A DNA stretch of 64,000 bases, taken from the NCBI GenBank assembly GCA_964016885.1, contig OZ024742.1, forward strand, positions 335,668,001 to 335,732,000, read 5' to 3'. Positions 33,449 through 57,235 of the stretch are shown here, piece after piece (within the stretch, counting starts at the first letter, position 1; every line of letters starts with the position of its first letter). Source of the stretch: Eledone cirrhosa (Eukaryota). A program made the translations under genes and the position numbers. The notes below the pieces were generated by a model. That model searched no databases and had not been told where the DNA came from. It was given only the letters and a program-made list of their open reading frames with translations.

Positions 33449-33497
33449 TTGCTTACAATTGTTTCCTCCAAACCGAGGTTTGGATTCTTCGGAGCAA
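33449..33497 (-). ncRNA. Hammerhead, family A (CCGAAGA core), 3' pLTR
   Basis: TTGCT-CCGAAGA-ATCCAAACC(TC)GGTTTGGAG-GAAA-CAATTG-TA-AGCAA. Confidence 0.78.
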
Positions 33498-35032
33498 CTA
33501 TTTATAACATACTTGACCTCCTTTTCAACCCAAGAGACACATAAAACATATGCGCATATTGATCAACAGTGGGGTGACATTCATCAAATGATATAGCATG
33601 GCAACTTACATATAAAGGTTACAGGATAAAAATAAAATAAAAACAAGAGTGAAAATAAGAGTGAAAATAAAGATAAACATGAAGCGTTGGCAGTCTATGA
33701 AGATAAAGCAAGAGGAAAGCTTAGAGTAGTCAGTGTATGAAACAATCTCCCGTGTAGCATGCACGCGTGTCTTATTTATACATGATTAGAGTGCGTCAGA
33801 ATGATATTTGCAGGGTCAGGCAGTTGAAGCAGACAATCGATCTTATTATGTAGGCTGAATTATTAAGTCATTTATTCTCATACATCTGTATGATATACAG
33901 TCTCGGATGCGGGGAAACACCAAAATATCAAAAACCCTCAACATACTATAAACCTTATTGTATCATAGGCAAGGCCGTACCACTGTCCTTGCTCACACCA
34001 CCACTCACATAATCAATGAGACGCAATATATATATAGAGAACACGCGTCTATTGTATAATTCGCGGTGGTTCAGCATATAGTCAAGCTATAAACCGTATC
34101 CAGTCGGTTCTTAATTAATATATCATGCTGTCCAGATTCCGGAAGTGCCTGAATGACTAAGGGGAATTAATGCGTAAGGGGAGGTAACTAGCTAGTTATC
34201 TTAGTTACATTACTATCCTAAACTACATTAATGGTGATTCAAATACGTGCCTATCATGTGAAGTTATAACTAATATCTAGAGTATGTTACCCATTTATAG
34301 GTTAGAGAGTTGTCCATTAAGAAGTACAAGGGTGTATATATTAGGATGATTACCATCCATTAATTAAGGGGTGTCATATCTGAACGTTCTATAAGAGGAG
34401 TCAGACTCTCAAGTCACTGCTCCATGCAAATGTAATATAACAGTAGGACCTGGTATGGTCCCACTATTATATATGCCACCCGGTAGGCTCCGGGTCATTG
34501 CATGCCTGCATCTCCAGTAAATCTTCGGTATGGTCCGGAGATCCAATCTCTCATATAAATGCACTAGTCTGGCCATCAAGCAATAGACAACCCCCGTCTC
34601 AAATATAAATCAATTATGTATCACATCTACAAGCTAGAGTGGAGTCTATTAATAGGTACTAAAGGAGTTCACATCAAGATGATTACGTGCATAATTCATT
34701 GAACTGATCGCTTACAGTATATATTCACTTAACAATACGATTATCTATCTAATCATCAATCTATCTCTTGGTGGTAATCCATGCACAGGACTATTCTATC
34801 GCAACCAGTACCGTGTCCCCAATTTATACTAATCTTATATTTGTGCAATGCAGAATAAGTAGTCCACGGTCGAGATATCAGTATTAGAGGTACAAGGGGT
34901 ATTCCCAGGGTAGGTGGTACTAAAATGCTGTCAGTATTATCTTTAGAGTATAGAGATGGGTGTGGATGTGAGGTGTAAGGTGTGCTACTGATGTTAATTG
35001 CTAGGGGTGGTGCCGGTTCCAGTCTGACATTA

Positions 35033-37515
35033 TTATATATAGGGTTTAAAGTTTTGGAACGAGTGTCGGAAGCGGTGTTGGCAATTTGCGAACACTTCTG
35101 ATTTTTTATTAAGGAGATTATGTTTAGAGAAGATGATAGTATGGGTCTCTAGTAGACAGAGGTTACAAAATTTATCAGGTGGTTTGTACGATGTTGCACT
35201 ACCTACCACTTCCCATTTAAGTGTATATATTTTATTTTTAGTTTTTAGATAGTGTATGTAGCTAGATAGTGAAGTGGAGTTGGCTAGACTGTGTTTTTTG
35301 AAAGAGTGGAGGTGCGAATTGCATCTAGTTTTGAAGCAGTTAGAAGTGGAGCCTATGTAGGTTTCAGAAGAGCTGTTAGTTGTGACTGTACATGAGTATA
35401 TGATATCCTTGGTTAAGCATTTTTTATCTAAAGGGCAGGTTCTACTTGATCTACAGTTACAATTACTCTGGGTGCTAGTCTGCCGGTTACTATGCTGTGT
35501 AGAAGTTTGGATGTTAGCTATAGGGTTATGGTTATGCGGGTTGTGGTACGCAGCGTTAATGTTTACACTAGTGCTATTACTATTATTTCCATTGATATTA
35601 CGGTTATTTGTTATAATGTTACTTTGACTGTTATTTTGAATGTTATTTTGAAGGTTTATCGACCGTTGTGATTTAGTTTGTTGGAAGTAAGAATTAATTT
35701 TTCTTTTATTTGTACTAGCTATGTGGTATGCTAAGTTAGGCGTAGTAGAGTATGAGATCTTAATAGTGTTTTTGTTTAAAAGGCCGTGGTACCTGTGGCC
35801 GGATGGGAAGTGTTTATCTAGTAGTGAGAAGAAAGCCCTAGGAAGGTTGGTAGAGACGTTTAAATTGAAAGGAGGGTTGAAAAATGTATTATTTCTTCTT
35901 CTATTTCTGTTTTTTATGTCTGGTGATTTGTTTCCTTTAATGTTCCTATGGTCCTTTCTGTGGTGCGGGTTACTCTTGTTGTTACAATCCCTATTAGTGT
36001 GTGTGCAGTGCTATTCCTATTATTAAATTTTCCCATGGACATGTTGTGTGAAATGATGTTGTAGCTATGTGTTTTTGTAGGTAGGAACTCTATCCCTGTA
36101 TTATGGCCTGATCTAGCTAATGCCTGATTATAATACTGCGAGTTATTGTTAAATGTGTTTATGTCATAGGATAGATTAGAGATTCTATTAGATACTCCCT
36201 TAGAGATAGAGTTCAATATAGATTTAGGGTGGTTAGACTTGGTATCTACGTAGATGAGGTTTTCATTAGGTTTGTGGAAAGGTGCATATATCATTGAGTC
36301 TAAGTAGAGTGTGGCGTCTAGGAAGTTGACGTTTTTGGTGTTTTTGTCCATGGTAATACTAAGGTTAAAGTTTTTGAATGTTTTGTGCAATAGTTTTCTA
36401 GTCCTTTCTATATTGAATTTTTTATAGTCTATAAGTAGAAGTGCATCATCGCGATACAAACCACCGCTGAGGTACGGAAGTTCCCTGTGGATTAGGTTAA
36501 GTAAGTATAGGCCAACCAAATCAGTGACCTGCGCCGAGTCACTAGACCCCATAGTAATGTCGAAGTTGTTTTGCGTATCCTTGCGGGTCCATAATTGGTC
36601 CTCAAAGGTGATTATTGTTTTACGGGCCGCAAGTATGACATCAATCTGGGGTCTAGTCAAGTCACTATTGTCCATGGCCATTATAAGTGCCTTATTTAGT
36701 AGGATAGGGGAAATAGAGGTGTAGTAAGAGTTGATATCAAATTGAATAAATTTTTTATCCTTGTTATCTATGATATTTTTGAACCATTCAATCACTTCAC
36801 CCGTATTTCCCCATTGCTTAAGGTAAATCTTGTGTTTAATCTGTGGGATGATTTTGTCTAGGATTTTTTTACTGATAATGCCAATGTCAGACCTGGAGGG
36901 GCAGATTAGTCTAATCGAGGGGTTGCTAATGAAGTCTACCTTATGGTCCTTCAGAGAGAATCTAGGGGGGTTTGGGGTGTAAGGTTGTGTATGTCTCTGG
37001 AGCCTTAGTTTGGATACTATATTATAGCCTTCCATATTAATATCTTCTAAGTTTTTCATAGTGGTTTTCTTGTAGCTTTTATGTAGTTCATTATATATAA
37101 ACTTTCTATACGTATTATAATCTAGGCTGTATATGTTATTAGTTTTGTCGGCATGTACAAACATTTTACTACTAGTTTTGAAGTCATTAATAGAGGTGCT
37201 AAGTTTGTTTAAGAAGGTGTTGTTTTTATTATGGTGTTTTTTGTATTTAATGTTTTTAACTAGTTTAATTAGGTCGTTTTCGAAGAGGTTTAGTAGTGTG
37301 TTATGAGGGGGGCTTCTAAATGTTTTAAAGCCGAAGGAGTCAAATTTGTTGGTGTTATTATCCTTGCCAGATTTGTTTCTATCATAATGGAATGTCCTCC
37401 ATCTCACTCTATTGATAAAGGAGTTTACACTGTTGATCAACAACTTTTCATATGTATTTTTGGTTGGTAAAGGTATGTTCTTGGTTGACATAGGGAGTTG
37501 GTCTTTGATCAGCAT
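35033..37515 (-). pseudogene. PLE polyprotein: RT (YRDD) + Asn-rich linker + GIY-YIG; one apparent frameshift near 35950-36010
   Basis: 533-aa ORF with LKDHK, QFDINSYYTSI, MGSSDSAQVTDLVGL, GLYRDDAL, FHKPN; second frame FFNPPF..CNCRSSRTCPL..TYIGST..CNLC..NCQH to a stop at 35033. Confidence 0.93.
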
Positions 37516-56533: not shown

Positions 56534-56766
56534 ATATATATATATATATATATATATATATATATATATATATATATATATATATATATATAAACATATA
56601 CATATATATATATATGTACAAACATATACATATATATATATATATATATATATATATATATATATATATATATATATATAAACATATACATATATATATA
56701 TGTATAAACATATACATATATATATGTATAAACACACACACACACACACACACACACACATATATA

Positions 56767-57235
56767 TAGTATTAAGGATACTATTTATGGTTATGTATAT
56801 ACGAAAACCTTTTATAGTTATATATATATTATACCCTAAATAGTGAAAGACAGTAATTTATTACTATCTTATTACCAGTAAGATAAATAGCTCAATGTAA
56901 CAACATCAGTTGTTTTACAGAGCAGTTATATAGAGATTACATGAAACAAAGTTCTGTTTAAATCATTTATCTGCTTACAATTGTTTCTTCCAAACCGAGG
57001 TTTGGAGTCTTCGGAGCAATTATTCAGTGATTTTTAACATACTTGACCTTCTTTTCAACACAAGAGACTGTGGGTCAATATATACATATGTTTCTATATG
57101 TCTCTTGTGTTGAAAAGAAGGTCAAGTATGTTAAAAATCACTGAATAATTGCTCCGAAGACTCCAAACCTCGGTTTGGAAGAAACAATTGTAAGCAGATA
57201 AATGATTTAAACAGAACTTTGTTTCATGTAATCTC
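56767..57235. mobile_element. Family-A fold-back with two back-to-back CCGAAGA hammerheads (56971-57019 -, 57149-57197 +)
   Basis: Tail 56767-56932; arms 56933-57068/57100-57235; homologous to 37561-37860. Confidence 0.88.

What the first reader, a model, noticed from the sequence alone, without database searches (positions are those of the whole stretch)
33449..57197. CCGAAGA (U4C) hammerhead core conserved across diverged family-A copies
Seen: four motifs in two independent insertions (33449/37771 and 56971/57149) have CCGAAGA in place of CUGANGA. All keep an 8-9-bp stem II, palindromic ACAATTGT and a GUA triplet, while the flanks have diverged by many substitutions and an indel. One carrier is a young near-intact element. 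Inference: U4C is the functional family state; standard CUGANGA searches would miss it.
Basis: partly seen in the sequence, partly recalled or inferred. Interest (0 to 1): 0.7.

Follow-up and report, generated by a model that had tools for sequence, protein, structure and literature searches.

The report
Penelope lineage with C4 hammerhead core
A jumping gene with thousands of copies in this animal genome carries a hammerhead (self-cutting RNA) motif with C in place of the textbook core U in 98% of matching copies; the rest of the motif has stayed intact while its flanks changed, so it likely still cuts itself, probably slowly and as a pair, and the same letter change is already known from plant viroids.

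Summary
The four CCGAAGA motifs are real type I minimal hammerheads in the pseudo-LTRs of a Hydra-clade Penelope-like retrotransposon. They amount to only two independent sequences, and stem II is 7 bp, not 8-9. Genome-wide, C4 is the family state: 4584 C, 53 U, 29 A/G. The U copies are scattered CpG decay (G5A 61; loop CpG 68 and 59). C4 predates the family: older relatives (1915 matches) carry it with U7 and GUC, and sister families have U4. Under C4 the other core bases stay fixed, free positions drift, and stems II and III covary, so selection on the fold continued. The predicted hammerhead fold forms only as a dimer. 132 of 144 copies end about 45 or 215 nt past the cut site, so they were likely copied from uncut RNA. 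Best reading: a tolerated, probably slowed, dimer-dependent ribozyme. Cleavage is untested. U4C is in print for viroids. I found no print report of its lineage-wide fixation in Penelope elements, though one key paper was unavailable. This scan noted the same thing before, in this genome and in others. New variant of a known kind; interest 0.42.

The parts
33405..38345 (-). Insertion 1: near-intact Hydra-clade Penelope-like element (subfamily A1), both ends in (TA)n
   Evidence: ends lie about +48 and +214 nt from the predicted cut site
33405..33967 (-). downstream pseudo-LTR (563 nt)
   Evidence: 3 differences to the upstream copy
33449..33497 (-). hammerhead copy 1: core 33492-33486, palindrome 33462-33455, predicted cut after 33454
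35033..36010 (-). linker and GIY-YIG-type endonuclease frame (CxCX5C linker, YIG, CxxC and CxH motifs, no CCHH)
   Evidence: motifs as in PMC8557442 section 11; no Pfam hit
35914..37524 (-). reverse transcriptase frame (RWR, DKT, YRDD), split from the endonuclease frame by a 1-nt deletion near 36010; subfamily A7 copies have one 819-aa ORF
37561..37726 (-). 5' region between the two fixed ends ('tail', 166 nt)
37727..38289 (-). upstream pseudo-LTR
37771..37819 (-). hammerhead copy 2, identical to copy 1: C3 37814, C4 37813, stem II 37806-37789, A.G mismatch 37807/37788, predicted cut after 37776
38283..38345 (+). 63-nt inverted copy of 37561-37623, the second end of insertion 1
56767..57236 (.). 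Insertion 2: non-coding two-armed stub of subfamily A3; perfect inverted arms 56932-57068 and 57100-57236 around a 31-nt spacer
56971..57019 (-). hammerhead copy 3 (C.A mismatch at 10.1/11.1)
57149..57197 (+). hammerhead copy 4, mirror image of copy 3
16749..16780 (-). comparison only: canonical U4 hammerhead of sister family D (RT 62% identical to family A)

Best explanation
The motif is the pseudo-LTR hammerhead of a Hydra-clade Penelope-like retrotransposon whose whole lineage carries C at core position 4, and it likely still works as a slowed ribozyme that is predicted to fold and cut after GUA only as a dimer. Shown: C4 is the lineage state; the U4 copies are scattered over all subfamilies at the CpG-decay rate; the other core bases stay fixed while free positions change; stems II and III covary; copies end at two fixed sites downstream of the cut site. 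Inferred: two hammerheads, from tandem pLTRs or from two RNAs, pair through the 8-nt palindrome to make stem III, probably helped by the element's protein. Reverse transcription starts about 45 or 215 nt downstream of the site and must run through it, so slow cutting costs little and U4C could fix. Residual cutting, for example trimming or turning over tandem transcripts, would keep the rest of the core under selection.
For: Counts: 4584 C, 53 U, 29 A/G. The four CpG-decay classes are equal: 53, 61, 68, 59, chi-square p 0.59. In 5 of 50 U4 loci the neighbouring copy is still C4. Nine subfamilies: 0 of 11 core columns vary against 12 of 30 flank columns, Fisher p 0.018. Older C4 relatives: 1915 matches, 87 of the first 100 listed are CCG. 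With them N7, N17, loop II and 10.1/11.1 vary while C3, C4, G5, A6, G8, A9, G12, A13, A14, A15.1 and U16.1 stay fixed in 22 variants. Both-side changes occur in stem II (A-U to G-C, 5 rows) and in the stem III palindrome (4 cells); covariation score 0.152, reached by 0 of 500 shuffles, at most 0.064 when slid. The dimer minimum-energy fold is the hammerhead fold and the monomer one is not. 132 of 144 copies end at +32..50 or +213..219. Intact 819-aa ORFs are flanked by C4 motifs. Literature: natural U4C lowers activity in vitro but permits viroid infectivity (PMC3088659); no inactivating U4 mutants arose in an MS2 selection (PMC4075628); an anole PLE hammerhead cuts only with its protein, and its mutants still insert in vitro (PMC11167929).
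Against: No cleavage assay or RNA reads were available. In a deep mutational scan all single mutants of the CUGA turn had low activity (PMC9901934). PLE minimal hammerheads are weak even with U4 (PMC4209133). This one also lacks the G10.1-C11.1 pair and any visible tertiary contact, so the sum could be near zero. Within family A, N7 and most of stem II are as fixed as the core, which fits a non-catalytic sequence constraint too. The anchor required core letters, so that invariance is partly built in; the flank-only sample that controls for it is only 30 copies. The shuffle control ignores relatedness, and pairs with both-side changes (3) did not exceed shuffles (278 of 500). The excess of 5' truncations at the cut site is weak (about 41 against 13 upstream and about 21-25 downstream).
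Confidence: 0.55

Rival explanations
1. U4C is close to neutral: in the dimer, with the element's protein, the C4 ribozyme cuts about as well as U4 PLE hammerheads, and C4 simply drifted to fixation in one master element.
For: PMC9608096 reports CCGA in 4 variants of a viroid-like RNA and cites the PLMVd case as not affecting self-cleavage. MS2 selection gave no U4 escape mutants. U4 and C4 families coexist and are both abundant here. Covariation continued under C4.
Against: PMC3088659 says U4C considerably decreases activity in vitro, and PMC9901934 found low activity for CUGA single mutants. In subfamily A1, C4 favours a mispaired monomer fold by about 1.2 kcal/mol over the best U4 fold (prediction).
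Confidence: 0.2
2. The motif no longer cuts to any useful degree. It is kept as a structural element, such as a dimerisation palindrome, a protein-binding site or a scaffold that places the two reverse-transcription start sites, and the core bases are conserved for shape or binding.
For: Two weakening features coexist (U4C, no G10.1-C11.1). Hammerhead mutants did not affect insertion in vitro and no RNA ends mapped to the site in the anole PLE. Only about 1% of copies start near the cut site (about 41 events against at least 5000 copies). N7 and stem II are nearly fixed within family A.
Against: Across families A and J the positions that vary are those free in active hammerheads (7, 17 as A/C/U but never G, loop II), and the fixed ones are the catalytic set. 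Mismatches at 10.1/11.1 are common in U4 Hydra hammerheads (U.U in 14 of 26 rows of File S2), and U.U is the best tolerated mismatch.
Confidence: 0.2
3. Neutral relic: one dead master carried C4, and the apparent conservation reflects recent common descent only.
For: The window holds only two independent sequences, 3 of 49 nt apart. Many copies are identical over 156 nt.
Against: C4 spans lineages with 87% RT identity and 76% endonuclease identity (one J copy that itself has U4). Flanks vary at 40% of columns and stem changes are compensatory.
Confidence: 0.04

Closest known systems
Hammerheads of Hydra-clade Penelope-like elements (Craig et al. 2021, PMC8557442; seen: passages, section 11, supplement part 2 with File S2, supplement searches)
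   Same: Type I hammerhead near the 3' end in a pLTR, short stem I, short palindromic stem III, frequent 10.1/11.1 mismatch, (TA)n targets, RWK/DKT/CxCX5C protein marks, inverted 5'-truncated arm.
   Different: All 26 Hydra rows in File S2 have CTGA (the descriptor demanded it). This lineage has CCGA, a 4.3-kb unit against under 3 kb for most, and a 166-nt tail against 30-40 nt.
Minimal PLE hammerheads (Cervera and De la Pena 2014, PMC4209133; seen: parts 1-2 of 4, search of supplementary file 2)
   Same: Long helix II (7 bp), short helix I (4-5 bp), palindromic helix III, dimer model, weak expected activity, thousands of dispersed stubs.
   Different: The reported core variant is U3-A8, not U4C. 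They note a conserved G10.1-C11.1 pair, which is absent here. No CCGAUGA or CCGAAGA in file 2; file 1 could not be searched.
Natural U4C hammerheads of viroids: the PLMVd variant (Ambros and Flores 1998, not held; seen only as cited in PMC3088659, PMC9608096, PMC4075628) and CtaHVd-LR1 variants (PMC9608096, passages)
   Same: The same core change, CUGA to CCGA.
   Different: There it is a minority variant in tertiary-stabilised hammerheads. Here it is fixed in a retrotransposon lineage with thousands of copies, in a minimal dimer-type hammerhead.
PAc Poseidon element of the green anole (Frangieh et al. 2024, PMC11167929; seen: parts 1-2 of 4)
   Same: Two internal reverse-transcription start sites downstream of the hammerhead define a tail, and the template is uncut RNA.
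   Different: Different PLE clade. Its hammerhead overlaps the ORF start; here it lies about 260 nt upstream of the start codon. The text read reports no U4C.

Membership tests
Hammerhead ribozyme (type I, minimal PLE type) | Three helices around the core, closed by stem I | tested here: met
   Stem I 4-5 bp, stem II 7 bp, stem III as an intermolecular 8-bp palindrome; 91.5% of cells paired, with covariation
Hammerhead ribozyme (type I, minimal PLE type) | Core C3, G5, A6, G8, A9, G12, A13, A14, A15.1-U16.1, H17 | tested here: met
   Fixed in 22 variants; N17 is A, C or U
Hammerhead ribozyme (type I, minimal PLE type) | U4 of the CUGA turn | tested here: not met
   C in 98.2% of matching copies; filed as a core variant, not as a canonical member
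Hammerhead ribozyme (type I, minimal PLE type) | G10.1-C11.1 pair | tested here: not met
   Mostly mismatches (A.G, C.A, C.U, U.U, C.C), sometimes A-U or U-A pairs; mismatches also occur in published Hydra rows
Hammerhead ribozyme (type I, minimal PLE type) | Site-specific self-cleavage after N17 | not testable with these tools
   No assay; only an indirect and weak truncation signal
Penelope-like element, Hydra clade | Single ORF, RT followed by a C-terminal GIY-YIG endonuclease | tested here: met
   819-aa ORF in L399-L401; the window copy has one frameshift. Domain names rest on motifs; Pfam and PDB gave no significant hit
Penelope-like element, Hydra clade | RWK motif, DKT, CxCX5C linker, no CCHH | tested here: met
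   RWR, DKT and CNCRSSRTC read against the text; N-terminal likeness to Hydra-1_Obim judged by eye
Penelope-like element, Hydra clade | pLTRs from partial tandems, inverted arm, tail, (TA)n target | tested here: met
Penelope-like element, Hydra clade | Placement in the Hydra clade by a tree with reference PLE proteins | not tested
   No reference proteins were available as tool sequences; my trees held this genome's elements only

The most novel reading that the evidence does not exclude
U4C is a selected brake. Because these elements must be copied from RNA that is still uncut at the hammerhead, lineages repeatedly gain C4 (families A/J, B and C here) to slow cleavage. In the youngest subfamilies C3-C4 also pair with G11.1-G12 to lock the monomer off, giving a monomer-off, dimer-on switch timed by the element's own protein.
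Probability: 0.15. Interest if true: 0.72.

Novelty: new variant of a known kind. Interest (0 to 1): 0.42.

Why it matters
What hammerheads do for Penelope-like elements is open: they are nearly universal, yet dispensable for insertion in vitro. This genome offers matched, abundant lineages with C4 (family A, intact ORFs) and U4 (family D, 62% RT identity), so the need for cleavage and its rate can be tested directly. It also shows that CUGANGA descriptors miss thousands of motifs: at least 4584 + 729 + 1915 pattern matches in one genome, nearly all C4 where listed. Statements that a PLE lacks a hammerhead should be rechecked with CYGANGA. The letter change itself is known and tolerated, which limits the surprise.

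Tried and rejected
(1) Rfam at gathering threshold: no match, but it also misses the canonical U4 motif at 16780, so it is uninformative. (2) Pfam and PDB sequence searches of the ORFs: no significant hit. (3) RNA evidence: no RNA holder listed. Run X1 laid nothing. DNA contigs of organism B show no other letter at position 4, but B may be this same species. Organism C has 3 low-depth contigs and D does not cover the core, so no claim on other species is made. (4) Genomic footprint of cleavage: 59 pattern hits, about 41 independent 5' truncations at -2..+1 by script plus hand correction, against 13 of 19 hits 12 nt upstream. Just downstream the script called 19 of the 30 fetched loci truncated (16-17 after hand correction), so about 21-25 of all 40 hits. 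Site against downstream gives p about 0.05 at 24, and 23 of the 41 junctions end in TA. Not accepted as evidence. (5) An active U4 or G5A subfamily inside family A: 50 of 53 U4 and 40 of 61 G5A loci were read, and both are scattered over all subfamilies; rejected. (6) One or several origins of C4: the RT+EN tree groups A with U4 family D (80/84), but A+B is not rejected (AU p 0.097). The DNA tree holds A+J (96/97) and, weakly, A+J+B+C (56/80). Unresolved. (7) No ORF could be tied to family C in 20 stretches of 5.5 kb. (8) The 10.1/11.1 mismatch as a novelty: rejected, it is common in published Hydra rows. (9) Lunse et al. 2017 and Ambros and Flores 1998 were not held, so their text and supplements were not seen.
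Full report
Observation. The window is G000:C3:335668001-335732000 of a 3.0-Gb genome. CCGAAGA occurs 9 times against 1.9 expected. Four occurrences sit in a hammerhead frame: 33492(-), 37814(-), 57014(-) and 57154(+). Read 5' to 3' each has a stem I strand, CCGAAGA, one free base, a 7-bp stem II with a 4-nt loop, one free base, GAA, the palindrome ACAATTGT, A17 and the other stem I strand. The first two are in 563-nt tandem repeats that differ at 3 positions; the last two are the arms of a perfect 137-nt inverted repeat. So the window holds two independent sequences, 3 of 49 nt apart. Stem II is 7 bp, not 8-9.

The carrier. 33405-38345 is a Penelope-like element on the minus strand, with both ends in (TA)n. 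Its frames hold RWR, DKT, YRDD, a CxCX5C linker and a YIG endonuclease without CCHH. These are the marks that Craig et al. 2021 give for the Hydra clade (PMC8557442 section 11). Pfam and PDB searches gave no significant hit, so the domain names rest on motifs. The window copy has a 1-nt deletion near 36010 relative to sister copy L486. Three subfamily A7 loci have an intact 819-aa ORF flanked by CCGAAGA motifs. 56767-57236 is a non-coding two-armed stub of subfamily A3.

Is C4 the family state? Yes. With one exact 29-nt pattern the genome gives 4584 C, 53 U and 29 A/G at position 4, or 98.2% C. C4-G5 is a CpG. G5A has 61 copies, and the loop CpG has 68 C>T and 59 G>A; the four classes do not differ (p 0.59). 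The 50 of 53 U4 loci and 40 of 61 G5A loci that I read fall in all subfamilies. In 5 U4 loci and 3 G5A loci the neighbouring copy is still CCG. U4 copies are therefore post-insertion decay. A pattern that uses only the downstream flank gave 5000 matches, possibly a cap. Of its first 30 loci, 27 keep the motif and all 27 have C at position 4; 3 are truncated. An older subfamily gave 729 matches, with 95 CCG, 4 CTG and 1 CCA among the first 100 listed.

How old is C4, and was the fold still selected? Nine subfamilies were defined by flanks from 178 of 231 distinct blocks (53 unassigned). They show 0 of 11 core columns varying against 12 of 30 downstream flank columns (Fisher p 0.018). That anchor required core letters, so the flank-only sample above is the control. 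RT identity between the most distant subfamilies is 87%. A wider pattern (9281 matches) revealed older relatives, here called J: 1915 matches, with 87 CCG, 10 CTG and 3 CCA among the first 100 listed. One J copy has an endonuclease 76% identical to A1. A and J form one clade (96/97). In 22 hand-picked C4 variants, N7 (A/U), N17 (A/C/U), loop II and 10.1/11.1 vary while the catalytic positions stay fixed. Stem II has an A-U to G-C change in 5 rows. The stem III palindrome goes from ACAATTGT through G.U intermediates to ACAGCTGT and to ACGATCGT. The covariation score is 0.152, reached by 0 of 500 shuffles and at most 0.064 when slid. The count of pairs with both-side changes (3) is not above shuffles (278 of 500), and the shuffles ignore relatedness.

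Neighbours. Family D (window 16780; 2665 candidates) has a canonical core in 32 of 34 motifs read and an RT 62% identical to A. Families F, G, H and I have similar stems with U4. Two more distant families also carry C4: B (23 CCG, 8 CTG, 1 CCA of 32; RT 55%) and C (11 CCG, 9 CTG, 5 CCA, 1 CTA of 26). Whether C4 arose once or several times is unresolved. The protein tree puts D next to A (80/84) but does not reject A+B (AU p 0.097), and the DNA tree weakly joins A, J, B and C (56/80).

Mechanism. Folding predictions give a mispaired monomer for A1 (-15.0 kcal/mol, with C3 and C4 paired to G12 and G11.1) against -10.6 for the hammerhead monomer. The two-molecule minimum-energy fold is the hammerhead dimer with an 8-bp stem III (-36.8 for A1, -31.4 for A3). 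Of 144 copies, 79 end 32-50 nt and 53 end 213-219 nt downstream of the cut site; both window insertions use the same two ends. These match the two internal start sites shown for the anole element, whose hammerhead needs its protein to cut and is dispensable for insertion in vitro (PMC11167929). Inference: cDNA synthesis runs through the site on uncut RNA. Only about 41 copies start within -2..+1 of the site, about 1% of the at least 5000 with that flank. That excess over neighbouring windows (13 upstream, about 21-25 downstream) is too weak to count as a cleavage footprint. No raw RNA reads were available to test the site.

What U4C does elsewhere. Perreault et al. 2011 (section 8 and passages) say the viroid U4C variant considerably lowers activity in vitro but permits infectivity, and that U.U at 10.1/11.1 is the best tolerated mismatch. 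PMC9608096 (passages) found CCGA in four variants of a viroid-like RNA. Selection in MS2 gave no U4 escape mutants (PMC4075628 part 1). Against this, a deep scan found low activity for single mutants in the CUGA turn (PMC9901934 passages), and PLE minimal hammerheads are weak even with U4 (PMC4209133 parts 1-2). I therefore put a slowed, dimer-dependent ribozyme at 0.55, neutral U4C at 0.2, a non-cutting structural role at 0.2 and a neutral relic at 0.04.

Novelty. All 26 Hydra rows of Craig's File S2 have CTGA, and 14 have U.U at 10.1/11.1, so only C4 is unusual. Full-text searches gave one paper for hammerhead + U4C, none for CCGANGA, none, and only viroid or model-ribozyme cases. Cervera's supplementary file 2 has no CCGAUGA or CCGAAGA, and file 1 could not be searched. 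Lunse et al. 2017, which surveys short-stem-III PLE hammerheads, was not held and may list C4. PMC6765202, PMC6155905 and PMC3907566 (passages) and bioRxiv 10.64898/2026.07.22.740005 (part 1 of 5) added no C4 case. This scan's own notes already record C4 PLE hammerheads in this genome and in several others. They are unchecked, I count them as leads only, and one states the same uncut-template idea. Verdict: a real, lineage-wide U4C variant of a known PLE hammerhead, under continued structural selection, with cleavage untested. New variant of a known kind, interest 0.42.

Noticed in passing
genome-wide lists: U4 and G5A decay copies lie on different chromosomes: contigs C1-C4 hold 10 U4 and 35 G5A, C20-C27 hold 21 and 4 (Fisher p 7e-7). 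The loop CpG leans the same way (21/36 against 11/8, p 0.12), and U4 differs from loop C>T (p 0.012). Unexplained; strand-biased mutation or selection in gene-dense regions are possible.
   Followed up: partly
window 37774-37778 equivalent; loci L317-L346, L366-L394: About 41 independent 5' truncations at the predicted cut site, against 13 upstream and about 21-25 downstream; many junctions end in TA.
   Followed up: yes
window 16749-16780(-) with ORF remnant 18463-19923(-): Sister Hydra-type family D with a canonical CUGAUGA core, GUCC/GGAC stem II and GUU site; a natural U4 control.
   Followed up: yes
rows: C4 families A, J, B and C have an even 8-nt stem III palindrome; U4 families D, F, G, H and I have a 7-nt one with a central mismatch. 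Other U4 families with 8-nt palindromes exist, so the link is not exclusive.
   Followed up: no
window 14121-14660, motif at 14396(+); L498, L505: A 212-nt inverted repeat with a canonical hammerhead motif that recurs at 467-nt spacing in other loci; retrozyme-like.
   Followed up: no
window 39927(-): Another U4 hammerhead-like motif with a short stem II, also seen in L404 and L505.
   Followed up: no
window 21181-22386, 32186-33327, 55340-55615: Further decayed Penelope-type RT and endonuclease fragments, 35-51% identical to family A.
   Followed up: partly
window 1-14000: Long stretch with a constant strong GC skew of about -0.71, probably a tandem array; not examined.
   Followed up: no
family B: U4 exceeds G5A 8 to 1 (p 0.04), so family B may include a true U4 subfamily, that is a gain or loss of C4 inside one family.
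   Followed up: partly
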